UHGV virus genome: UHGV-0268189
Source of the DNA: a virus
Length of the DNA stretch: 10,296 bases
Strand: one strand, 5' to 3'
Part shown: positions 1 to 10,296 of the stretch, piece by piece
Layout of the letters: each line of letters starts with the position of its first letter
Numbering within the stretch: position 1 is the stretch's first letter
Notes under the pieces: model-generated
Database searches by the model: none
Told to the model about the DNA's origin: nothing
What the model saw: the letters and a program-made list of their open reading frames with translations, nothing else
Position numbers and translations under genes: made by a program

Positions 1-1
1 C

Positions 2-136
2 GGTGGCTGGAAGGCATTTTTGTGGAAGCCACCCTATGCATACCGGCAGATAAAGGTGACCTGTGCCGGGTGGTCTGCGCGGGTCGGGATGTTGCGCGTT
101 GAGTTCAGCGCGGAGTTTAAGCAGGTGGTGAACTGA
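2..136 (+). CDS. M: Tail protein M, C-terminal 44 codons plus stop, plus-strand copy, partial at left window edge
   Basis: Frame 2 translates to GGWKAFLWKPPYAYRQIKVTCAGWSARVGMLRVEFSAEFKQVVN*, the native M C-terminus. The same bases recur reverse-complemented at 240-362. Confidence 0.7.
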   Translation, partial: GGWKAFLWKPPYAYRQIKVTCAGWSARVGMLRVEFSAEFKQVVN

Positions 137-246
137 TGCAGGATATTCGAGAAGAAAGTCTGAGCGAGTCGGTTAAATCAGAGCAGTCACCGCGGGTGGT
201 ACTCTGGGAAATTGACCTGACGGTGCAGGGTGGTGAGCGTGCTTAA
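136..246 (+). pseudogene. L: Tail protein L, N-terminal 35 codons only, truncated at foldback junction
   Basis: ATG at 136 overlaps the M stop (TGATG). Translation MQDIREESLSESVKSEQSPRVVLWEIDLTVQGGER matches the lambda L N-terminus, then homology ends at 240 and a stop follows at 244-246. Confidence 0.7.
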
Positions 247-556
247 ACTCCGCGCTGAACTCAACGCGCAACATCCCGACCCGCGCAGACCACCCGGCAC
301 AGGTCACCTTTATCTGCCGGTATGCATAGGGTGGCTTCCACAAAAATGCCTTCCAGCCACCGTGCTCTGCCAGGAACGCTTCCAGATGCCGGGCCTCCTC
401 CCGGGTCACGGAAAGCGTCACCCTGTATGTTTTCAGGTCAGCATTCAGCCCTGCCGCCATACGCTGTGAGTACCCGTCACCAAAACGCACTTCACGCACC
501 GATGGCTGCGAGTTCACCTCCATATCCGGCTTCACTTTCCAGCGAAAGGTTTTCAT
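173..556 (-). CDS. M: Tail protein M, first 105 codons native, last 22 codons aberrant read-through across the foldback junction
   Basis: MKTFRWKVKP...RVEFSAEFK matches lambda M; after K (242-244) the ORF reads the reverse complement of the L start (HAHHPAPSGQ...) instead of QVVN*. ATG overlaps the H stop. Confidence 0.8.
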   Translation of the reverse strand: MKTFRWKVKPDMEVNSQPSVREVRFGDGYSQRMAAGLNADLKTYRVTLSVTREEARHLEAFLAEHGGWKAFLWKPPYAYRQIKVTCAGWSARVGMLRVEFSAEFKHAHHPAPSGQFPRVPPAVTALI

Positions 557-3165
557 CCACCGCTCCCTGATAACATACCGCCATCACGCAACTGCAGCCG
601 GAGTTCATCCTGTGCCCCCTTGCGGGCCATCTCATACACCGCTTTCATCAGCTGCGGCCCTGCCCGCCCGTTGGGGCCGTCGTTCTGAATCACCACGTGA
701 TTGTTCTGATTAAAATTAATGCCTTCCGCCCGCCGCATCTGCGCCGGACTTCCGGCACCGCCGACATAACCACCTTCCGCATAGCCCCGCATCAGGCGGT
801 ACAGATTGCCGACACCAATCCGGCTGGTCGCCTCCTTCGTGAAGACAAACTCCCCGCGATGAACAATCCCCGCAGGTTCATATTTACCCCCCGTCCCCGT
901 AAATCCCCCGGTCGCGAAATGGAAGTTCGCCGCCGCAGCCTGAATGGCTGTACCGCCTGACGCGGATGCGCCGCCACCAACAGCCCCGCCAATGGCGCTG
1001 CCGATACTCCCGACTATCCCCACCATCGCCTGCTTCAGAAAAATCTCTGTCAGCATGGACAGCACAGAACGGGTGAAACCACGCCAGTTCTGTTCGCTGC
1101 CGGTCAGCATCGCTGCCATATTCTGTGCAATACCGTCAAAGGTCTGCGTGGCCGCGTTTTTAACCTGCGAAAAACTGTCCGTCGCACTTTCCGCCCACTC
1201 GCCCCAGCCGGACTTCATCCCGGCCATCCAGCTTCCACGAAGCTGCTCCTCCGCAGACCAGGTGTTCTTCAGTGCAGATGTGGCCTTCGCCAGCGCAACC
1301 GGATTATCACCGTACACCTCACGAAGGCGCTGCTCTTCCGACTCCCGCTGCGCCTGACGGTCGGTGAGTCCGCGGGCTTTTGCGCTGATTGCCGCCTGCT
1401 TCGCGCTCTGCTGCTGTTCAAACCGCGCCGCCTGCTGTGCCAGCTCATTCAGCCGTTTCTGGTGTTCAATCTTGTCGCCCAGCTCAGCCAGCTGGCGTTT
1501 GTACTCCAGCGTTTCTTTCTCATGGGCCAGCAGGGATTTTTCCTGCTCAGATAACTGCCGTTTCGTGGCAGCCTCTTTCAGGACCGCATACTGACTTTCC
1601 GCCTTCCATAAATCACGGCGCTGCCGGCTGATTTTCTCATTCGCACCGCTGTGTTTTTCCAGCGTCCTGAGCTCAGCTTCAAGGGCAAGCAGAGCCTCTC
1701 TTGCCTGCTCCTCTTCCCTCTCCCCGGCAGAGCGCGTTTTCGGTGATGTATGCTTTTTACCTGTCAGCTCTTCAGCCAGACGGCTGACGGCTTCCTGCTG
1801 CCCAGGACCTTTGCTGACGCCTGTTGCACGCGAGCGGTTGATGTACCCCATTTCCCCCTGGCGTATACGCGCATCCCGTTCCGCAATGGATTTTCTCAGC
1901 GCCAGTTCATCGCGTTTTGTTTTCTCAATAAATACGCGGTTCTCTTCTGCCAGTTCACCAAACAACGCACCAACGCCGGGCACATTCTTTGTCGTTTCCC
2001 AGGCTGACTGAATAAATTCAGCCAGCGCCAGATCCCCCTGCACAAGCAGCAGCTTCACCTGTTCAACGGTTCCGGCCACCACGTCAGTGATCAGACTGAG
2101 TGCCCCCAGTGTATGATCACCTATCCATGCCCATGCGTCAGAAGTCCAGGTTTTAACATCGTCCCAGATTTTTTCCACCGGCGTGGCCGCTTTATCAAGT
2201 TGCTCCAGACGTGCATTCATGACATCCGCAAACAGGGACATCGCCTCCGTCACCGCAGCCTGTTTACCTTTCGTGCGCTCAAGCTCATCAATATGGCGTA
2301 ACTGGGAAACGCTCAGGAAGTTATACTGCTGATTCAGGGAGGCCAGCGCCTTCACCGGATCTGCTGCAATCCCTTCAAAGGCTTTTTCCACCTTCCCGGC
2401 ATCGTCCCCCACCGTCTGCAGCCATCTCTGAGAGGTTTCCCCCATGATCCGTAGCTGCCCGGCGGTATATTTCCCGCTTTCTGCCAGACGGGCCAGATTT
2501 TCTGCCGCCTGTCTGATACCACCACCGGCTTCATCGCTGATCACCCCGGCCATTTTCCACAATTCTGCCGTTGTGGTGGCAGCCGCCCCTCCGGTCAGGA
2601 TCAGTGAACGCAATAAGGCCCGGTCAGCCTGCTCTGCCTGCCAGGCGGCGGCAGCAAGCGCGGCCAGTACGGCAACCCCGCCACCTGCCGCCACACGGGC
2701 CACCGACATAAATCGTCCCAGCTCACCGGCATTCCGGGCATTTTCAGCCAGTGCATTTGCCGTATCTGACAGCGACTCCTCTGATGATTCAGAGGCATCC
2801 CTGATCCCGAGAAGTTCCTCCTTCAGCAGGGTAAGCAGGCTGAGCGGTCCACCGAATGAATCGCTGATCTGCCCCCCCTGCTGCAGCATGATAAGGAAGG
2901 GATTCTGACCACCGGCAAGCTGAGTGACAATATCCGTGAACTGTGCGGGCAGTGTGCGCATGGCAGCCTTATACTGTCCGACTGATATCCCGGCTTTTTG
3001 TGCAGCCAGCGCCTGTCGGCTCAGCCCCTGTTCAACAGTACTGGCGGTTTTTCTGGCATCCGCCTCCAGACTGGAAAAATGACGGCGTACCCGGGCCATC
3101 TGTTCATCAAACCGGGCCGCATCCAGACTCAAATCAATAACCAGATCACCCGCTGGCTGGGACAT
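553..3165 (-). CDS. H: Tail tape measure protein H (870 aa)
   Basis: N-terminus MSQPAGDLVIDLSLDAARFDEQMARVRRHF and C-terminal third (LWKAESQ...GGFTGTGGKYEPAGIVHRGEFVFTKEATSRIGVGNLYRLMRGYA) match lambda H; central region diverged. RBS GGAGGTG 6 nt upstream. Confidence 0.92.
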   Translation of the reverse strand: MSQPAGDLVIDLSLDAARFDEQMARVRRHFSSLEADARKTASTVEQGLSRQALAAQKAGISVGQYKAAMRTLPAQFTDIVTQLAGGQNPFLIMLQQGGQISDSFGGPLSLLTLLKEELLGIRDASESSEESLSDTANALAENARNAGELGRFMSVARVAAGGGVAVLAALAAAAWQAEQADRALLRSLILTGGAAATTTAELWKMAGVISDEAGGGIRQAAENLARLAESGKYTAGQLRIMGETSQRWLQTVGDDAGKVEKAFEGIAADPVKALASLNQQYNFLSVSQLRHIDELERTKGKQAAVTEAMSLFADVMNARLEQLDKAATPVEKIWDDVKTWTSDAWAWIGDHTLGALSLITDVVAGTVEQVKLLLVQGDLALAEFIQSAWETTKNVPGVGALFGELAEENRVFIEKTKRDELALRKSIAERDARIRQGEMGYINRSRATGVSKGPGQQEAVSRLAEELTGKKHTSPKTRSAGEREEEQAREALLALEAELRTLEKHSGANEKISRQRRDLWKAESQYAVLKEAATKRQLSEQEKSLLAHEKETLEYKRQLAELGDKIEHQKRLNELAQQAARFEQQQSAKQAAISAKARGLTDRQAQRESEEQRLREVYGDNPVALAKATSALKNTWSAEEQLRGSWMAGMKSGWGEWAESATDSFSQVKNAATQTFDGIAQNMAAMLTGSEQNWRGFTRSVLSMLTEIFLKQAMVGIVGSIGSAIGGAVGGGASASGGTAIQAAAANFHFATGGFTGTGGKYEPAGIVHRGEFVFTKEATSRIGVGNLYRLMRGYAEGGYVGGAGSPAQMRRAEGINFNQNNHVVIQNDGPNGRAGPQLMKAVYEMARKGAQDELRLQLRDGGMLSGSGG

Positions 3166-4008
3166 ATCTCACACCTCCGGAAATCCCCGCTGAAGCCATC
3201 ATTAATGCAACATCATCCTCGCTGACATCCACCACATCCGCAGAAGGTGAAATATCGCGCCCTCCGTCCCCTCTGAACCGGACGCCTCCGGCAACTCCTG
3301 TCGCTTTCTGCATCAGCATTTCTTCCTCGTCCGGCATCTCCGTCTGCTCTTCCTCACACGCTGGAGCAAGCAGACTGAAATCCGCCGGATGCATATCCGG
3401 ATCGCCAAAAAACAGGCTGAGTACGGCGTACATCAGCCCGGAAAAATGAGCGTCCAGTTGGGTATCCTGAAAATAATGCGTGCAGTAAAAACGTCGCCAG
3501 TCGGCATATTCGGTGGATGTCATCCCGGCAAGCATGGCGCGCCAGTCGGGTCTCCCCATCTCTCGCGCCAGTTTCAGGACAAAGTTCAGCTCGCCTTCGA
3601 ATGCTTTTTTGATGTTACCGGCTCAGTCGCTTCTGCTTTCCCGGTTTGTTCAGGATCGGCATCGTGCCGGTTATCCAGCATACCTGAAAGATAAAGCACC
3701 CGGTTCGTTGCCTGATTCAGTGCATCAGCAGGCCATCCCAGCATCACTTCACGGCGGATCTGCTGCATCTCTGTCTCCGGAGAGGCCAGAGTGCCTTTGA
3801 GGGAATGGGTATGCCATAGCGACATCGCCACAAGCAGGGATGCCGTTTCCAGATATCGCTGGTTAATGTGCACGACATCATGCTTCGTTGTCTCCTGTTG
3901 TTCTGCGTCTGAAACAAACTTTATATAATCAAACCGCTGCAGCGCAGACAATTCGGAAAGCGTGACGGACATACCGTTATATTCAAATTGTTCTGTTTTC
4001 AGAAACAT
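3146..4008 (-). CDS. T: Tail assembly chaperone G-T fusion made by programmed -1 frameshift from G into the T frame
   Basis: The -1 frame is open from 3622 down to the stop at 3146 and encodes ...AFEGELNFVLKLAREMGRPDWRAMLAGMTSTEYADWRRFY..., matching lambda T. It has no independent start upstream and overlaps the G 3' end, as in lambda G/GT. Confidence 0.8.
3172..3178 (-). promoter_or_regulatory. Ribosome binding site for H (GGAGGTG)
   Basis: Reverse complement of cacctcc, 6 nt upstream of the H ATG at 3165. Confidence 0.6.
3586..4008 (-). CDS. G: Tail assembly chaperone G (140 aa)
   Basis: MFLKTEQFEYNGMSVTLSELSALQR... matches lambda G (MFLKTESFEHNGVTVTLSELSALQR). RBS GGAGGT at 4014-4019. 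Position between V and H. Confidence 0.9.
   Translation of the reverse strand: MFLKTEQFEYNGMSVTLSELSALQRFDYIKFVSDAEQQETTKHDVVHINQRYLETASLLVAMSLWHTHSLKGTLASPETEMQQIRREVMLGWPADALNQATNRVLYLSGMLDNRHDADPEQTGKAEATEPVTSKKHSKAS
3604..3610 (-). promoter_or_regulatory. -1 ribosomal frameshift slippery heptamer A AAA AAG for G to G-T
   Basis: Minus strand ...aca tca aaa aag cat...: zero-frame codons AAA AAG preceded by A. It lies 3' of the T-frame stop (3623-3625) and 5' of the G stop (3586-3588), the only interval where a shift can yield GT. Confidence 0.7.
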
Positions 4009-4013
4009 GTATT

Positions 4014-4019
4014 ACCTCC
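4014..4019 (-). promoter_or_regulatory. Ribosome binding site for G (GGAGGT)
   Basis: Reverse complement of acctcc, 5 nt upstream of the G ATG at 4008. Confidence 0.6.
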
Positions 4020-4260
4020 GTTTACCCTGCAGCGCCCGCTTCAGTAACGGTGACTTCAGCCACTGCGGCGAACTGACCATTTCCGCTCACCACAGGGATC
4101 TGCACCTTACCTGTCGCCACGCCGTTTACCGTAATTGTCATATCTTTCACACTAATGGTGGCTTTCGACGGATCGGCGGAAACCGCTCTGAACGTCTTGT
4201 CGGTTGCACTTTCCGGCTCAAAAGAAACCGTCAGGGTGGTTGTTTTCCCTTTTGCCACCG

Positions 4261-4509
4261 TACCGGATGTCGGCGTCACCTTAATCGCACTGACCGGCGT
4301 AATTTTGCTGCGTTCTTCCGAAATCCGTTTTCCGAATGGCACGGTGGATGTGTTTCGTGGCTGGGTCAGCAGTATCGGTAAGGCCGTGACGGCGAAAGAA
4401 GTGATCACCCGCACGGTGAAAGTCACTAACGTGGGTAAACCTTCTGTAGCGGAAGAACGCAGCAAAATTACGCCGGTCAGTGCGATTAAGGTGACGCCGA
4501 CATCCGGTA
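4261..4509. repeat. Perfect 60-bp inverted repeat, arms 4261-4320 and 4450-4509 (V codons [19 protein letters not shown])
   Basis: Reverse complement of 4450-4509 equals 4261-4320 exactly by direct comparison. Confidence 0.9.
4321..4509 (+). other. V-gene internal segment (codons about 109-172) in inverted, plus orientation
   Basis: Plus-strand translation [63 protein letters not shown] is collinear with lambda V ([39 protein letters not shown]...), opposite to the rest of the gene. Confidence 0.85.
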
Positions 4510-4564
4510 AGGTGGAAAACCCAGCCACGAAACACATCCACCGTGCCATTCGGAAAACGGATTT
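4321..4564. repeat. Perfect 46-bp inverted repeat, arms 4321-4366 and 4519-4564 (V codons [15 protein letters not shown])
   Basis: Reverse complement of 4321-4366 equals 4519-4564 exactly; mismatch at both flanks. Confidence 0.9.
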
Positions 4565-4896
4565 TATAGGCCCGGACATCGCCGCTTTCAAACCAGCCTA
4601 TAAGCCCTTTCTGGCCTTCCTCTCCCGGTTTCCAGGCCAGCGTAAAACTGGTATCACCTGCAGATTTCTGCCCCTGCCCGGTCGCGGTCCAGTCCGCGTC
4701 TTCATCATCCAGGTAGTTATCATCGTAGGATTCTGCCGTCATCTCGCCCGGCGTCAGATCCTTCACCTTAGCCAGTCGCTGCCAGTCATCGTCTGACAAC
4801 GGGTTTGCATAAGCATCACCCTTGCCGTTGTAAACCCACAGAGTGGTACCGGCACCTTTTACCGGCTCAAGGGGATTTGGTGTTGCCATATCGTCC

Positions 4897-5292
4897 TCAC
4901 ATCTCGTATGTAATGGAATAAGTCAGATCTGCAGAACTCCATAACGCCATATCGTCATCACGACGATACTCATAGCCCTGCGTAACCATCGTGGTAATCA
5001 GTCCTGCCAGTGCCGGGATCGCAGTCATCGCCGGGTAAATCCGGCTTTCCATCCACTGATCAAGCTCTGAATCCGGTACCTGTGCCGGTAAAAACACCTC
5101 AATATGCAGCGTGGCCCGCCAGGTATCTGCATCCAGCTCTTCACCGGTATACTCTGCATCCGTCAGATAAACCGCGATCGCAGGAAAATCCTCTTCGTCA
5201 AAAACAACGGGGCGACCATCAAACAGCGTCGCCCCGTGTTCATGCTGCTCGAGTGCATCCAGCACTGCGGCACGAATGTCAGTGTGTTTCAT
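4897..5292 (-). CDS. U: Tail terminator protein U (131 aa)
   Basis: [28 protein letters not shown]...[11 protein letters not shown] matches lambda U ([28 protein letters not shown]...). 396 nt as in lambda; ATGA overlap with Z. Confidence 0.9.
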
Positions 5293-5864
5293 CGTTTTAT
5301 TGCAATCCTCAGTTGTTGTTTCAGCGCGTATGCCAGTTCTTTAGGCAGGCGTTCACGCCGGATACGGTCAACATTCTCATCAAATGCCTGTTTCAGTGGG
5401 GCCGCCATCGGGATTTTCACCACCTGAATGGGAAGGCGATTACGCTTTTTCCTTCCCTTGTCGTCATTGCCCTCCTCATATCTGGCCTGGGGAAGACGTT
5501 GCATAACATGCCAGCGCCCATTATTTAATCGCTGGATAAATGCCCGCTGATAACGATGCTGACCGGCTTTGAGTATGCTGTTCGGACGACGCCCCAGCAT
5601 TCTGATCCCCAGCTTAATCACAGGGAGATCACCGCGGTTAACGATAATTCTGGCATTCGGATTTCTGACCGTCGCCCGTTTCAGTCTGGACCGTTCCTTT
5701 ACCAGTTTCCGTCTCACCCTGGTTTCCCGGGCAACCTGTGACGAAGACTGATTAATCGCCGTTGTGGCCACGCGGTTAATGGTCATTGCAGAAGCAGCCG
5801 GAATGGCGTTTTTACGAACCCGGCTCAGATTATCAATCGCCTGATCAAGCCCTTTTATCGCCAT
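5289..5864 (-). CDS. Z: Tail completion protein Z (191 aa)
   Basis: MAIKGLDQAIDNLSRVRKNAIPAASAMTINRVA...[25 protein letters not shown] matches lambda Z at both termini; central part diverged. Confidence 0.88.
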   Translation of the reverse strand: MAIKGLDQAIDNLSRVRKNAIPAASAMTINRVATTAINQSSSQVARETRVRRKLVKERSRLKRATVRNPNARIIVNRGDLPVIKLGIRMLGRRPNSILKAGQHRYQRAFIQRLNNGRWHVMQRLPQARYEEGNDDKGRKKRNRLPIQVVKIPMAAPLKQAFDENVDRIRRERLPKELAYALKQQLRIAIKR

Positions 5865-5879
5865 AATTTCACCCTGCGT

Positions 5880-6233
5880 TTATCGTCGCCGGTTAACAGC
5901 GGGTGGTTGCCCACGGTTGAGCCAGAGATAACAGCTTCCACCATCATCCGGCGAAACCCGGTCTATCCAGAAGTTTTCCTCACCGATGGTCAGCGTGTCT
6001 CCACGCCGCAGTTGCCGCACATCATCAGTCCGGACAAACAGGGACGGGCTGGAGCCTTCAACGCGCACGCCCTGTCCGGCATAGCTGATATTTTCAGGGT
6101 CATCAAAAACACCACGTATTACTGCGCCGGACTGCTCACCGGATGTCATGGTGGCTGACGTTCCCATGTACCCGCGTATCGTTTCATCGGCGCGGGCAAT
6201 GGCAGCATCGAACAGGTTATCGAAATCAGCCAC
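5880..6233 (-). CDS. FII: Head-tail joining protein FII (117 aa)
   Basis: MADFDNLFDAAIARADETIRGYMGTSATMTSGEQSGAVIRGVFDDPENISYAGQGVRVEGSS... near-identical to lambda FII; 354 nt as in lambda. Confidence 0.92.
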   Translation of the reverse strand: MADFDNLFDAAIARADETIRGYMGTSATMTSGEQSGAVIRGVFDDPENISYAGQGVRVEGSSPSLFVRTDDVRQLRRGDTLTIGEENFWIDRVSPDDGGSCYLWLNRGQPPAVNRRR

Positions 6234-6244
6234 AGCGCCTCCCG

Positions 6245-6631
6245 TTATTGCATTCTGGCCAGGCCGCGCTCTGTCATTTCAGCTGCCACACCGGCAGAGA
6301 CACGGAACGCCGTTCCCGGCAGCACAAATGCCACAGTGTCATCCCGCGTGGCGTGAAGTGCATCAGTATGCAGCGTCACCAGTGCCACAACCGTGACCAG
6401 ATCAGCCGTATCAGTCACGGTATCCGGCTGCGCTGATACAACCTCATTTTCATGTCCGGTCAGCGCATTTTCCGGGCTGATAGGGGTATCCTGATCGGCA
6501 GTGTCATCAAGCTCCTCTTCCAGCTCTGCCACACGGAGCGCCAGTTCTTCTTTCGTTCCCGTCAGGCTGACATCACGGTTCAGTTGCTCACCCAGCTCCT
6601 GAAGACGGGCAATCAGTTCATCTTTCGTCAT
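6245..6631 (-). CDS. FI: DNA packaging / head completion protein FI (128 aa)
   Basis: Start taken at the internal Met of the 141-aa ORF (MTKDELIARLQELGEQLNRDVSLTGTKEELALRVAEL...), which matches the lambda FI N-terminus and has RBS GAGGAG at 6635-6640. C-terminus ...VAAEMTERGLARMQ matches lambda. Confidence 0.88.
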   Translation of the reverse strand: MTKDELIARLQELGEQLNRDVSLTGTKEELALRVAELEEELDDTADQDTPISPENALTGHENEVVSAQPDTVTDTADLVTVVALVTLHTDALHATRDDTVAFVLPGTAFRVSAGVAAEMTERGLARMQ

Positions 6632-6634
6632 GAA

Positions 6635-6640
6635 CTCCTC
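6635..6640 (-). promoter_or_regulatory. Ribosome binding site for FI (GAGGAG)
   Basis: Reverse complement of ctcctc immediately upstream of the FI ATG at 6631. Confidence 0.5.
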
Positions 6641-6653
6641 CACAGAGAGAAAA

Positions 6654-6669
6654 TGGCCCCGAAGGGCCA
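6654..6669 (-). promoter_or_regulatory. GC-rich stem-loop with UUCG tetraloop in the E-FI intergenic region
   Basis: Sense strand 5'-UGGCCC UUCG GGGCCA-3' (6-bp stem) just after the E stop, followed by UUUUCUCUCU and the FI RBS. Confidence 0.5.
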
Positions 6670-6672
6670 CGA

Positions 6673-7698
6673 TTACGCCAGTTGTACGGAAACGAACTCA
6701 TCAGGGTCAGCCAGCAGCATCAGCGGTGCTGACTGAATCATGGTGAACTCACGCGCCGGATCGCCGGTGGTCACCCAGTTTTTCGGGTAACGGGCAGAGG
6801 CGTTAATGCCTTCGCGCTGTGCATCCGCATCCTGAATGCAGCCATAGGTGCGCAGACCGCGTGCATGAGTGTTACCCAGCACCATCGTGTTGTCCGGCAG
6901 GAAGTTCTTTTTGACGCCGTTTTCCACGTACTGTCCGGAATACACGACGATGGCCACATCGCCATACATTCCCTTATAAGACACCGCTTTGCCCAGGTCT
7001 TTTACCGCTGTCTCCAGTTCGGAATGAGAGCCGCGACGGGTATCCAGCTTCTCCCTGACGGCTTTGAAGGAACGGAACAGCGCCCAGCCTTTCGGGTCAA
7101 ACACGATGATATTCACCACGCCGCTGGCGTTCAGCGCGTAGGCTTCGATATCGTCGGTCGGGTCATACGTGGACTTGTCACGCTTGCTCCACTCCGTGTC
7201 GCCGGACTGTGTGATGTTGTTCGCCGCACTGCGGCCCATATCCACCTCAACCGGATCAAAGGCTTCACCGGTCATGGTGTATTTGCCCTTAAGCACGGCA
7301 GAAACTGCCTGCATCTCTTCGACCTGGGCAATGGCCAGCTCTTCGTCACGCATGTTCTGCATGATGATGCGACGGCGGCGGTAAGCCGGGTCCGCCAGAT
7401 TCTGCGGATCTTCATCCGGCAGGCGACGCAGGGTCATCTGCGGATTCACCTCATGCTTCGGCTTGACATATCCCGGCGTAAATTCAGAGGTGGAGCCGCC
7501 ACGGGAACGGATAACCTCACCGGAAACAATCGGCGAAACGTACAGCGCCATGTTTACCAGTCCCGGAATTTGTGAGAGATAAACTTTCTCCGTGGTGAAG
7601 GGATAGCTCTCACGGAAAAAGAGACGCAGAAACAGCGGATCAAACTTAAATTTATGCTCATTTGCCGCCAGCAGCTGGGCGGTTGTGTACATCGACAT
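6673..7698 (-). CDS. E: Major capsid protein E (341 aa)
   Basis: Start at the Met giving MSMYTTAQLLAANEHKFKFDPLFLRLFFRESYPFTTEKVYLSQIPGLVNMALYVSP..., near-identical to lambda E over its full length; 1026 nt as in lambda. The ORF-track start at 7725 is an upstream in-frame extension. Confidence 0.95.
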   Translation of the reverse strand: MSMYTTAQLLAANEHKFKFDPLFLRLFFRESYPFTTEKVYLSQIPGLVNMALYVSPIVSGEVIRSRGGSTSEFTPGYVKPKHEVNPQMTLRRLPDEDPQNLADPAYRRRRIIMQNMRDEELAIAQVEEMQAVSAVLKGKYTMTGEAFDPVEVDMGRSAANNITQSGDTEWSKRDKSTYDPTDDIEAYALNASGVVNIIVFDPKGWALFRSFKAVREKLDTRRGSHSELETAVKDLGKAVSYKGMYGDVAIVVYSGQYVENGVKKNFLPDNTMVLGNTHARGLRTYGCIQDADAQREGINASARYPKNWVTTGDPAREFTMIQSAPLMLLADPDEFVSVQLA

Positions 7699-7711
7699 AA
7701 AAAAATCCCGT

Positions 7712-7736
7712 AAAAAAAGCCGCACAGGCGGCCTTT
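7712..7736 (-). terminator. Intrinsic-terminator-like hairpin in the D-E intergenic region (stem GCCGC/GCGGC, loop CUGU, then U7)
   Basis: Sense strand 5'-AAAGGCCGCCUGUGCGGCUUUUUUUACGGGAUUUUUUU-AUG(E). Plus-strand stem arms at 7719-7723 and 7728-7732, flanked by A7 at 7712-7718. Confidence 0.45.
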
Positions 7737-7753
7737 AGTGATGAAGGGTAAGG

Positions 7754-8086
7754 TTAAACGATGCTGATTGCCGTTCCGGCAAACGCGGTCCGTTTTTTCG
7801 TCTCGTCGCTGGCAGCCTCCGGCCAGAGCACATCCTCATAACGGAACGTGCCGGACTTGTAGAACGTCAGCGTGGTGCTGGTCTGGTCAGCAGCAACCGC
7901 AAGAATGCCAACGGCAGCACCGTCGGTGGTGCCATCCCACGCAACCAGCTTACGGGTGGAGGTATCCGGCATCAGCGGGGTCATTGCAGGCGCTTTCGCA
8001 CTCAATCCGCCGGGCGCGGTTGCGGTATGAGCCGGGTCACTGTTGCCCAGCGGCTGGTAATGGGTAAAGGTTTCTTTGCTCGTCAT
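7754..8086 (-). CDS. D: Head decoration protein D (110 aa)
   Basis: Start at the Met giving [110 protein letters not shown], near-identical to lambda D; 333 nt and 9-nt gap after C as in lambda. Confidence 0.95.
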
Positions 8087-8095
8087 AAACATCCC

Positions 8096-8701
8096 TTACA
8101 CTGGTGTGTTCAGCAAATCGTTAACGGCATCAGATGCCAGGTTACCTGCAGCCAGCGGTGCCGGTGCCCCCTGCATCAGACGATCCAGCGCAGTATCACT
8201 GCGCGCCTGTGCACTCTGTGGTGCTGCGGCCAGAATGCGGCGGGCCGTTTCCACGGTCATACCGGGGGTTTCTGCCAGCACGCGGGCCTGTTCTTCGCGT
8301 CCGTGAGCCTCCTCACAGTTGAGGATCCCCATAATGCGGCTGTTTTCTGCCGCAACCGCAGCGTTGATCTGCGCGTTCACGTCCGGCTGCGCCGCGCTGG
8401 CGTTTTGGCCCTCCATCGCTGGCACCACGCCAGTAACGTCAGCCTGCGAAGCAGTGGCTGAAACAGTTGTTGATTGAGTCTCTTTGGTCATTCGCCCTCC
8501 TGAGAGACGGGATTTACGTGCATCCAGTGCATCACGCATGATGGTGATCGCATCGGTACTGTTAACAAGTTCATCAGCCAGTCCGGCATCAATGGCCTCC
8601 TGACCGCTGTACACTGCAGCCTCGGTATCCAGCACAGCCTGCACGGACAGGCCGGTATATGCCGACACCTTCTGTGCAAACATCCGGCGGGTTGCATCCA
8701 T
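8096..8701 (-). CDS. nu3: Capsid scaffolding protein Nu3 (201 aa), in-frame internal start within C
   Basis: ATG at 8699-8701 in the C frame (MDATRRMFAQKVSAYTGLSVQAVLD...); same stop as C; 606 nt as in lambda Nu3. Confidence 0.8.
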   Translation of the reverse strand: MDATRRMFAQKVSAYTGLSVQAVLDTEAAVYSGQEAIDAGLADELVNSTDAITIMRDALDARKSRLSGGRMTKETQSTTVSATASQADVTGVVPAMEGQNASAAQPDVNAQINAAVAAENSRIMGILNCEEAHGREEQARVLAETPGMTVETARRILAAAPQSAQARSDTALDRLMQGAPAPLAAGNLASDAVNDLLNTPV

Positions 8702-9415
8702 CCGGGACTGCAGTGTTTCCCGGACATCATCCGGTAGATGGCTGTAGGGGTTGCCATCCACCTTATGGCTGCCGCTGTAAATCAGCGTGATTTCCACGCC
8801 CTGTTTCTCCAGCGCAGCACCGTAATTACTGTGAGCCATCATGACGCCGATGGAGCCTGTCCGGGCGGTCTGCGTGACCAGACGCCGGGAGGCGGCACTG
8901 GCAAGCAGCTGACCTGCGCTGCAGTTCATGTCATTGGCCAGCGCCCATACCGGCTTTATGTCACGCACACGGGCGATGATGTCAGCGCAGTCAAATGCCC
9001 CTGCCACCATTCCGCCGGGCGTGTCCATATCCAGCAGAATGCCGTCCACCATCGGGTCGCTGGCAGCCTGTTGCAGACGGGCGATAATGCCGTTGTAACC
9101 GGTCATCCCCGAATACGGCTGCAGCGCCCGCGTCCGGCAGACCAGCGTGCCGGAAACCGGCAGCACGGCGATGCCGTTCATGACCTGATAACTGCGGGCC
9201 TGTCGTGGTACGTCATCATTAACGGATAACGCCAGCTTCGCGGGTGCCTCTCCGGCAGTCAGGCTGTCACCGGACACCGCATCCGTCAGGCGGCTGATCC
9301 CAAGCTGGCCTGCAAGCGCACAAAAGAAAACCCGCGCATAGGCGGGTTCAAGCATAAGCGGCTCATTAAAGGCCATGCTGGCAATATGCGGGAGATTACG
9401 CAGCTCTGCTGTCAC
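8096..9415 (-). CDS. C: Head protease / minor capsid protein C (439 aa, GTG start)
   Basis: From GTG at 9413-9415 (RBS GAGGAGGAG at 9420-9428) the frame gives (M)TAELRNLPHIASMAFNEPLMLEPAYARVFFCALAGQLGIS...NDLLNTPV, near-identical to lambda C; 1320 nt; 20-nt overlap with the B 3' end as in lambda. Confidence 0.93.
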   Translation of the reverse strand: MTAELRNLPHIASMAFNEPLMLEPAYARVFFCALAGQLGISRLTDAVSGDSLTAGEAPAKLALSVNDDVPRQARSYQVMNGIAVLPVSGTLVCRTRALQPYSGMTGYNGIIARLQQAASDPMVDGILLDMDTPGGMVAGAFDCADIIARVRDIKPVWALANDMNCSAGQLLASAASRRLVTQTARTGSIGVMMAHSNYGAALEKQGVEITLIYSGSHKVDGNPYSHLPDDVRETLQSRMDATRRMFAQKVSAYTGLSVQAVLDTEAAVYSGQEAIDAGLADELVNSTDAITIMRDALDARKSRLSGGRMTKETQSTTVSATASQADVTGVVPAMEGQNASAAQPDVNAQINAAVAAENSRIMGILNCEEAHGREEQARVLAETPGMTVETARRILAAAPQSAQARSDTALDRLMQGAPAPLAAGNLASDAVNDLLNTPV

Positions 9416-10155
9416 TCTTCTCCTCCTCTGTTGATTGTCGCAGTCCGGATTCAAATGCCGCAGCCGCCCAGGCGGGCGGTTTAAGACCGGCTGCACGGCG
9501 CTCCATCGTTTCACGGACCTGCTGGGCAAAAATTTCCTGATAGTCGTCACCGCGTTTTGCGCACTCTTTCTCGTAGGTACTCAGTCCGGCTTCTATCAGC
9601 ATCACCGCTTCCTGAACTTCTTTCAGACCATCGATGGCCATACGACCGGAGCCTATCCAGTCACAGTTCCCCCAGGCGCTGCGGGCTTCCTGAAAGCTGA
9701 AACGCGCTTTTGAAGGTAACGTCACCACGCGGCGAACGATGGCCTCTTCCAGCCAGCACAGAAACATCTGGCTCGCCTGACGGGATGCGACGAATTTTCG
9801 CCGCCCCATAAAGTACGCCCACGACTCGTTCGCACTGGCCCGTGCCGTGGAATAGCTCATCTGGGCGTAATTCCGGGAAAGCTGCTCATACGAGACACCC
9901 AGCCCGGCAGCGATATACCGCAACAGTGACTGCTCAAACACGGAGTAGCCGTTATCCGTATCCTGAGCCGTCTGCAGGTTCAGTGAGTCACCCGGCATCA
10001 GGTGCGGCACTTTTGCGCCTCCCAGCCGAACCGGTGCTGCGGCGTAATACGCGGCAATTTCACCAATCCAGCCGGTCAGCTTGTCCCGCTGCTCCTGACT
10101 GTTCGCGCCCAGAATAAAATCCATCGCTGACTGCGTATCCAGCTCACTCTCAATG
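9396..10155 (-). CDS. B: Portal protein B, C-terminal ~253 codons only; upstream part replaced by foldback junction
   Basis: Minus frame reads IESELDTQSAMDFILGANSQEQRDKLTGWIGEIAAYYAAAPVRLGG...STEEEKSDSRAA*, matching the lambda B C-terminal half. Upstream of about 10155 the frame reads unrelated residues and hits a stop at 10194-10196. The ORF-track start at 10124 is an internal Met. Confidence 0.85.
9420..9428 (-). promoter_or_regulatory. Ribosome binding site for C (GAGGAGGAG)
   Basis: Reverse complement of ctcctcctc, 4 nt upstream of the GTG at 9415. Confidence 0.6.
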
Positions 10156-10296
10156 CCCGTGGAGGACGGGCAGACCCGCGGTGCAAATGTGTTTTACAGC
10201 GTGATGGAGCAGATGAAGATGCTCGACACGCTGCAGAACACGCAGCTGCAGAGCGCCATTGTGAAGGCGATGTATGCCGCCACCATTGAGAGTGAG
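10143..10296. repeat. Inverted repeat, arms 10143-10155 and 10284-10296 (right arm cut by window edge), spacer 128 bp
   Basis: Reverse complement of 10284-10296 (cattgagagtgag) equals 10143-10155; mismatch at 10156/10283. Confidence 0.7.
10150..10296 (+). CDS. B: Portal protein B internal fragment in plus orientation, partial, runs off right window edge
   Basis: Plus frame from 10150: SMPVEDGQTRGANVFYSVMEQMKMLDTLQNTQLQSAIVKAMYAATIESE, the B segment immediately N-terminal of IESELDTQSAMDF in lambda. Confidence 0.8.

What the first reader, a model, noticed from the sequence alone, without database searches (positions are those of the whole stretch)
1..362. Left-edge foldback: 123-bp perfect inverted repeat truncates L after 35 codons and replaces the last 4 codons of M
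Plus strand 1-136 encodes the M C-terminus (...EFSAEFKQVVN*), then L starts at 136 (MQDIREES...GGER). At 239/240 the sequence flips into the reverse complement of the same M 3' region (240-362 is the reverse complement of 1-123) and continues as minus-strand M, H and so on. The minus-strand M copy therefore lacks QVVN-stop and reads 22 aberrant codons to a stop at 173. The plus arm runs off the window, so the inverted duplication may extend much further left, possibly a whole plus-oriented copy of the tail genes.
Basis: seen in the sequence. Interest (0 to 1): 0.7.

Follow-up and report, generated by a model that had tools for sequence, protein, structure and literature searches.

The report
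Flipped end piece, probably assembly artefact
The perfect 123-base inverted repeat at the left edge is really in the sequence, but it is most likely a 239-base piece of an ordinary lambda-like E. coli prophage joined on in the wrong orientation when the record was built, not a feature of the phage.

Summary
Bases 1-123 and 240-362 are 100% complementary. The plus strand of 1-239 encodes the end of M and the first 35 codons of L. The minus-strand M loses QVVN-stop and gains 22 aberrant codons.

The biological reading is not supported. Against a 99.7-99.9% identical E. coli prophage, the window is five pieces in correct map order:
- 1-239, flipped
- 240-4320
- 4321-4519, flipped (the V "zig-zag")
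- 4519-10155

All four junctions share one geometry: a jump 116-153 nt ahead, then reading backwards, with 0-1 nt of junction overlap. Turning the three short pieces round in place gives a collinear 10,045-nt sequence. No base is lost and every gene is intact.

None of the junctions occurs in 5,426 complete E. coli genomes, 50,697 phage records, IMG/VR or JGI metagenome contigs. Eighty related IMG/VR loci (1.12 Mb) have no such local inverted repeat.

The best reading is a record-specific construction artefact. A real rearrangement is not excluded, because neither reads nor the left flank can be seen.

The parts
1..239 (+). Flipped piece X. It is the reverse complement of the expected M-3'/L-5' sequence (reference L002 2885-3123). 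Its plus strand encodes the M C-terminus (1-133, stop 134-136) and L codons 1-35 (136-240).
   Evidence: blastn to L002 and L001: the window's 1-239 aligns on the minus strand while 240 onward aligns on the plus strand. The best complete-genome match is 99.2%. All of its variants are natural alleles.
1..123 (.). Left arm of the inverted repeat. It is the part of piece X that overlaps the start of the main piece.
   Evidence: 123 nt, 100% complementary to 240-362.
124..239 (+). 116-nt spacer, present only in the flipped orientation: the last 4 M codons plus stop, and the L N-terminal codons.
239..240 (.). Junction J1, a blunt join with 0 nt shared between the two sides. Reference position 2885 (minus strand) abuts 3001 (plus strand).
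   Evidence: The 40-mer across it is absent from viral, metagenome and genome contig collections. None of 10,671 homologous places in E. coli genomes spans it.
240..362 (-). Right arm of the repeat: minus-strand M from about codon 65 to the second base of codon 106. It is the start of the main collinear piece 240-4320.
   Evidence: 240-1200 is 100% identical to many E. coli prophages.
173..556 (-). Aberrant M ORF of 127 aa (105 native residues plus 22 read from antisense L).
   Evidence: The fused tail was found in none of 5.8 billion protein clusters. The exact protein is not on record.
4321..4519 (+). Flipped piece F, 199 nt, inside gene V (reference 7012-7210, reverse complement). It overlaps its neighbours by 70 nt (4251-4320) and 46 nt (4519-4564).
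   Evidence: No phage record spans it. Two C-to-A changes lie 3 and 9 nt from its end.
10156..10296 (+). Flipped piece Y, 141 nt, inside the portal gene (reference 12789-12929, reverse complement, 100% identical). It overlaps the main piece by 13 nt and reaches the right end of the window.
   Evidence: None of 12,680 homologous places in E. coli genomes spans this junction. The 38-mer across it is absent from viral contigs.

Best explanation
The foldback is not a property of the phage genome. It comes from how this sequence record was put together.

The window is an ordinary lambda-like E. coli prophage morphogenesis block (portal to M, all genes on the minus strand). It is made of two long collinear pieces and three short pieces (239, 199 and 141 nt). 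Each short piece sits at its correct map position and truly overlaps its neighbours by 13-123 nt. Each was joined end-to-end in the wrong orientation, without the overlap being recognised.

Because piece X is reversed, its 123-nt true overlap with the main piece appears as a perfect inverted repeat. The 116 nt that only X carries appear as the spacer.

Shown here: the five-piece layout, the blunt junctions, the restoration by flipping, and the absence of the junctions elsewhere. Inferred: that the flipping happened in assembly, scaffolding or concatenation of low-coverage data. Which program did it cannot be determined.
For: 1. Five-segment alignment to NZ_AP045820.1: the window's 1-239 is the reverse complement of 2885-3123; 240-4320 is 3001-7081; 4321-4519 is the reverse complement of 7012-7210; 4519-10155 is 7165-12801; 10156-10296 is the reverse complement of 12789-12929. 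The pieces are in order of map position and no reference base is missing.
2. All four junctions have the same geometry, with jumps of 116, 129, 153 and 128 nt. They share only 0, 0, 1 and 0 nt between sides, which is what random blunt joins give.
3. Flipping the three pieces and merging overlaps gives 10,045 collinear nt, 99.74% identical to the reference. M (109 aa...EFKQVVN), V (250 aa), the portal frame and all other genes are intact. Of the 26 differing bases, 17 are synonymous.
4. Both ends of the window fall in flipped pieces, and the right one is exactly 141 nt. This suggests the window is a whole record whose end pieces are single short units.
5. The last 10 nt of piece F carry two C-to-A changes. 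The neighbouring forward copy of the same bases has the common allele (present in 41 of 94 loci), and the exact F end is in 0 of 94 loci. F is therefore an independent, error-ended observation of the locus, not a copy of its neighbour.
6. The junctions are unique to this record:
   - 0 of 10,671 M/L places in E. coli genomes span J1, and 0 of 12,680 portal places span the right-edge junction.
   - 0 of 113 matching phage records span the V event.
   - Exact junction words are absent from IMG/VR, JGI metagenomes and GTDB genomes.
   - 80 IMG/VR loci with an identical M (1.12 Mb) have no local inverted repeat of 30 nt or more.
Against: - No reads, coverage or provenance are available, and the sequence left of position 1 cannot be seen, so the artefact is inferred, not demonstrated.
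- A pure de Bruijn graph assembler cannot create junction words that are absent from the reads. The error must therefore lie in a scaffolding, concatenation or graph-path step, or in chimeric molecules, and I could not identify the program.
- The geometry of the V event (A, rcB, rc-middle, rcA, B) is also what a real inversion made by staggered breaks would give.
- On a pure random-orientation model, two long pieces sharing one orientation and three short pieces all taking the other has a chance of about 1 in 16.
Confidence: 0.62

Rival explanations
1. The junctions existed in physical molecules of the sequencing library, and a low-coverage assembly followed them. Candidates are inverted chimeras from whole-genome amplification, fold-back or ligation artefacts of library preparation, or read pairs fused head-to-head. 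This is still an artefact, but of the wet lab or read handling rather than of the assembler.
For: - Inverted joins between nearby sites are the dominant chimera type in multiple displacement amplification: 85% are inverted, they favour sites under 10 kb apart, and there is about one per 10-22 kb (PMC1855051). The distance peak is 250-300 nt (PMC4595205).
- The narrow jump range of 116-153 nt looks like a library insert-size parameter. It fits the end of one read followed by the start of its mate.
- A de Bruijn assembler needs the junction words to be present in reads. The terminal 141-nt piece equals a k-mer size that, from my own knowledge, is commonly used as the largest k.
Against: - Amplification chimeras between nearby inverted sites have 2 nt or more of junction complementarity in 93.5% of cases, with a peak at 6 nt. 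Here the values are 0, 0, 1 and 0 nt, which is about 2e-5 for four junctions on my arithmetic.
- Random chimeric molecules are each unique. They should lose to true reads unless coverage is extremely low.
- The V event needs two independent chimeric junctions 199 nt apart that together lose no base.
Confidence: 0.22
2. The rearrangements are real in the source DNA. They could be local inversions with inverted duplications at their ends. Alternatively the window could be the central, inverted copy of a roughly 10-kb tandem inversion duplication of a defective prophage, with the left arm continuing far beyond the window as a plus-oriented copy of the tail genes.
For: - The sequence as given contains the junctions.
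- The geometry of the V event matches an inversion made by staggered breaks.
- The left and right edges together fit an inverted-forward-inverted layout of the unit 2885-12929.
- Point changes next to a junction (4510, 4516) are also reported for error-prone replicative repair (own knowledge).
Against: - There are three events of one geometry in 10 kb. Each breaks an essential gene (M/L, V, portal), while the rest of the module is intact and the differences from the closest prophage (L002) are mostly synonymous (17 of 26 differing bases).
- No junction has microhomology, although template-switch and snap-back mechanisms use it.
- E. coli lacks a blunt end-joining pathway (own knowledge).
- No relative among more than 10,000 homologous places has any of the junctions, and there are none in 1.12 Mb of related loci.
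- The arms of the V event differ at 2 of 70 positions, whereas the rest of the window differs from its closest relative (L002) at about 0.3%.
Confidence: 0.12
3. A programmed structure: either an invertible segment flipped by a site-specific invertase, or a covalently closed hairpin end of a linear prophage-plasmid.
For: Phages do carry invertible tail-fibre segments and, in N15-type phages, hairpin telomeres (own knowledge). The structure is an inverted repeat at the edge of the record.
Against: - The arms are ordinary unique coding sequence of M. In relatives M occurs once, followed collinearly by L, and no pre-existing crossover repeats are present.
- No relative shows the other orientation.
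- A hairpin end would give a palindrome with no spacer or only a few bases, not a 116-nt spacer found only in reversed orientation.
- The ORFs of the window are lambda-type head and tail genes, in the same order as the reference annotation.
Confidence: 0.02

Closest known systems
Mis-oriented short contig or read joined without overlap detection (scaffolding, concatenation or graph-path misassembly)
   Same: The pieces are in correct map order. The short ones are reversed. Their true overlaps appear as inverted repeats. The joins are blunt. Flipping restores a perfect collinear sequence. The events sit at both record ends and at one internal gap.
   Different: The program and data type are unknown. 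No gap characters (N) mark the joins.
Inverted chimeras of multiple displacement amplification (Lasken and Stockwell 2007, PMC1855051; Tu et al. 2015, PMC4595205)
   Same: The second segment is inverted, the joined sites are close together in the genome, and there are several events per 10 kb.
   Different: Those junctions nearly always show 2-21 nt of complementarity, with a peak at 6 nt. Here there is 0-1 nt at all four junctions.
Unsafe unitigs of de Bruijn graph assemblers at imperfect coverage (Rahman and Medvedev 2022, PMC9528984)
   Same: A misjoin that arises where true coverage is missing. The paper reports it in the contig output of SPAdes and MEGAHIT.
   Different: From my understanding of de Bruijn graphs, that mechanism needs the two joined segments to share a (k-1)-mer. 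Here the two sides share at most 1 nt.
Real inversions with inverted duplications at the breakpoints (staggered-break model), and tandem inversion duplications in enterobacteria (both from own knowledge)
   Same: The order 'A, rcB, rc-middle, rcA, B' of the V event matches the first. The inverted-forward-inverted layout of the whole window matches the second.
   Different: There are three events in 10 kb of otherwise intact genes. There are no short quasi-palindromes at the junctions and no occurrence in any relative. Copy number cannot be tested.

Membership tests
Mis-oriented piece / butt-join construction artefact | Reversing the piece in place restores collinearity with relatives, with no base gained or lost | tested here: met
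   The restored 10,045-nt sequence equals reference span 2885-12929 in length, is 99.74% identical, and has all ORFs intact.
Mis-oriented piece / butt-join construction artefact | The junction is specific to this record and absent from all relatives | tested here: met
Mis-oriented piece / butt-join construction artefact | No reads, or only discordant reads, support the junction, while reads support the collinear sequence | not testable with these tools
   Reads and provenance of the window are not available.
Multiple displacement amplification inverted chimera | The second segment is inverted and the joined sites are less than 10 kb apart | tested here: met
   The jumps are 116-153 nt and all are inverted.
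Multiple displacement amplification inverted chimera | Short complementarity (2 nt or more, typically 5-8) at the junction where the displaced 3' end primed | tested here: not met
   The overlaps are 0, 0, 1 and 0 nt, against 93.5% with 2 nt or more in PMC1855051.
De Bruijn graph unsafe unitig | The joined segments share a (k-1)-mer | tested here: not met
   At most 1 nt is shared at any junction.
Site-specific invertase switch (Gin/Cin/Pin/Hin type) | Pre-existing inverted crossover sites flank the segment in relatives, and both orientations occur in the population | tested here: not met
   Relatives carry M and L once and collinear. None of 10,671 places has the flipped junction.
Site-specific invertase switch (Gin/Cin/Pin/Hin type) | An adjacent serine recombinase gene | not tested
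   No profile search was run. The ORF list shows lambda-type head and tail genes in the order of the reference annotation.
Covalently closed hairpin telomere (N15-type) | A terminal palindrome with no or almost no spacer, at the genome end | tested here: not met
   There is a 116-nt non-palindromic spacer present only in reversed orientation, and the site lies inside M/L coding sequence.
Tandem inversion duplication / replicative template switch (real) | Junctions at short quasi-palindromes or microhomology | tested here: not met
Tandem inversion duplication / replicative template switch (real) | Raised copy number of the repeated unit, and flanking copies that continue beyond the junctions | not testable with these tools
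   There is no coverage information and no sequence outside the window.

The most novel reading that the evidence does not exclude
The junctions are real. A lambdoid prophage would have suffered a burst of strand-switching events: several local inversions with inverted duplications, or a roughly 10-kb tandem inversion duplication of which this window is the central copy. The joins would be blunt and free of microhomology, which would imply an end-joining or strand-switching activity not known in E. coli.
Probability: 0.08. Interest if true: 0.6.

Novelty: not a real feature. Interest (0 to 1): 0.1.

Why it matters
If the junction were real, it would be a clustered, microhomology-free inverted rearrangement of a prophage. 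That would be unusual for E. coli and worth following up.

As it stands, its value is practical. The record carries three mis-oriented pieces that create false inverted repeats, a false M variant, a truncated L, a split V and a broken portal gene. Gene calls and any repeat-based or terminus-based inference from this record (for example inverted terminal repeats, or judging completeness) should not be trusted until the pieces are turned round or the reads are checked.

Tried and rejected
- **Finding the source contig.** I looked it up through its unique proteins (aberrant M of 127 aa, V fragment of 202 aa) and neither is on record. I also searched exact junction words and found nothing in viral, metagenome or genome contigs. 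The left flank could therefore not be read.
- **Look-up with the U protein.** This protein is too common (47,392 blocks) to lead to the source. The places returned only showed collinear V-G-T-H-M-L-K-I-J order.
- **Amplification template switching.** Rejected as the main cause because the junctions lack microhomology.
- **Shared-k-mer misjoin in a de Bruijn graph.** Rejected for the same reason.
- **Invertase switch and hairpin telomere.** Rejected because relatives are collinear and the spacer is long and one-sided.
- **Breakpoints at boundaries of variable sequence among 14 related loci.** The mismatch profile was uninformative.
- **L codon 5 (CGA).** I first thought this allele was unique to the window. 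It is a natural allele present in 9 of the fetched loci.
- **k-mer size.** I tried to fit one k to both ends. The right piece fits k = 141 and the left arm fits k = 123, so no single value explains both. The k-mer argument is therefore only suggestive.

Full report
**What is there**

The window is a lambda-like E. coli prophage morphogenesis block read on its minus strand: portal (partial), protease/scaffold, D, E, FI, FII, Z, U, V, G, T, H and M. The reported repeat is real. Arms 1-123 and 240-362 are 123 nt, 100% complementary and 116 nt apart. As single-stranded DNA the hairpin scores -191.8 kcal/mol, z = -32.6 against shuffles.

- The plus strand of 1-136 ends ...EFSAEFKQVVN*.
- L starts at 136 and is cut after 35 codons.
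- The minus-strand M ORF (173..556) keeps residues 1-105 and gains 22 aberrant residues.

**The wider picture**

The closest complete genome found is NZ_AP045820.1 (locus L002). Against it the window falls into five segments (the same layout against L001):

| Piece | Window | Reference (L002) | Orientation | Length | Identity |
|---|---|---|---|---|---|
| X | 1-239 | 2885-3123 | flipped | 239 nt | 97.9% |
| A | 240-4320 | 3001-7081 | forward | 4,081 nt | 99.9% |
| F | 4321-4519 | 7012-7210 | flipped | 199 nt | 98.5% |
| C | 4519-10155 | 7165-12801 | forward | 5,637 nt | 99.7% |
| Y | 10156-10296 | 12789-12929 | flipped | 141 nt | 100% |

So the left-edge foldback is one of three events of the same kind.

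The pieces lie in order of their map position. Every reference base from 2885 to 12929 is represented. The short pieces truly overlap their neighbours by 123, 70, 46 and 13 nt, and those overlaps are what appear as inverted repeats.

Each junction has the same form: the sequence jumps ahead by 116, 129, 153 or 128 nt and then reads backwards.

**Junctions**

The two sides of the four junctions share 0, 0, 1 and 0 nt. This is what random blunt joins give.

**Restoration**

I reversed X, F and Y in place and merged the overlaps. The result is a 10,045-nt sequence with these properties:
- It is exactly the length of the reference span and 99.74% identical to it.
- M (109 aa, ...EFKQVVN), V (250 aa), the portal frame and all other genes are intact.
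- Of the 26 differing bases, 17 are synonymous.

The module therefore looks functional and selection-maintained apart from the three flips, each of which breaks an essential gene.

**Independence of the flipped pieces**

- X carries only natural alleles, but in a combination not seen exactly in complete genomes: the best match is 99.2%.
- The last 10 nt of F carry two C-to-A changes (4510, 4516). The forward copy of the same bases in piece A has the common allele.
- The exact F end is in 0 of 94 fetched loci. The common allele is in 41. A one-change version is in only one genome.

F is thus a separate, error-ended observation of the locus, like a read or a small contig end, and not a copy of its neighbour.

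**Uniqueness**

- None of 10,671 homologous M/L places in E. coli complete genomes spans junction 239/240.
- None of 12,680 portal places spans the right-edge junction.
- None of 113 matching phage records spans the V event.
- Exact junction words are absent from IMG/VR, JGI metagenome contigs and GTDB genomes.
- The fused M tail is in none of 5.8 billion protein clusters.
- Eighty IMG/VR loci encoding an identical M (1.12 Mb) contain no local inverted repeat of 30 nt or more within 1.5 kb, against three in this 10.3-kb window.

**Interpretation**

The simplest account needs one error per piece. Three short units were placed correctly but reversed, and then butt-joined because an overlap cannot be found in the wrong orientation. 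Both window ends lie in such units, and the right one is exactly 141 nt. This suggests the window is a whole record built from low-coverage data. I rate this at 0.62.

A second artefact route is physical chimeric molecules or fused read pairs followed by an assembler. It fits the narrow, insert-size-like jump range. It also fits the fact that a de Bruijn assembler needs junction words in the reads. However, amplification chimeras almost always show junction complementarity (93.5% with 2 nt or more; peak at 6 nt). I rate this at 0.22.

Shared-k-mer "unsafe unitigs" are excluded by the blunt junctions.

A real rearrangement has compatible geometry, either as staggered-break inversions or as a roughly 10-kb tandem inversion duplication with this window as the central copy. 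It would require three like events in intact essential genes, blunt joins in an organism without blunt end joining (own knowledge), and no trace in any relative. I rate this at 0.12.

An invertase switch or a hairpin telomere is contradicted by the collinear relatives and by the long, one-sided spacer. I rate this at 0.02.

**Limits**

I could not see the sequence left of position 1, nor any reads, coverage or provenance. The artefact reading is therefore an inference from anatomy and comparison. No single k-mer size explains both ends (123 on the left, 141 on the right), so the assembler cannot be named.

**Verdict**

The biological interpretation is not supported. This is most likely not a real feature, and interest is low.

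Noticed in passing
window 10143-10296: There is a third foldback, at the right edge. The last 141 nt are the reverse complement of portal-gene sequence lying 128 nt further on (reference 12789-12929, 100% identical), with 13-nt inverted arms (10143-10155 and 10284-10296). It breaks the portal reading frame.
   Followed up: yes
window 4251-4564: The V 'zig-zag' is a 199-nt piece (4321-4519) reversed in place, overlapping its neighbours by 70 and 46 nt. It splits V into two aberrant ORFs (4281..4889 and 4022..4591). Turning it round restores a 250-aa V.
   Followed up: yes
window 4510 and 4516: Two C-to-A changes lie 9 and 3 nt from the end of the flipped V piece. The forward copy at 4254/4260 has the common allele, and the exact combination is in none of 94 related loci. 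This looks like an error-rich read or contig end.
   Followed up: partly
window 4687-5301: There is a cluster of 13 differences from the closest genome (L002), 10 of them synonymous, spanning the 5' part of V, all of U and the end of Z. The rest of the window is almost identical to that genome. This looks like a recombination patch from another lambdoid allele.
   Followed up: no
window 1692-2848 and 3608-3934: The middle of the tape-measure gene H and part of G have no match in prophage L001 but match L002 at more than 99.9%. This is ordinary lambdoid mosaicism.
   Followed up: no
proteins P0001-P0009: Many E. coli draft assemblies carry 'phage tail protein, partial' fragments of M of 24-76 aa, and for several the longest contig on record is only 0.5-7 kb. 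This suggests short-read contigs of E. coli often break at the M/L region, in keeping with this window ending there.
   Followed up: no
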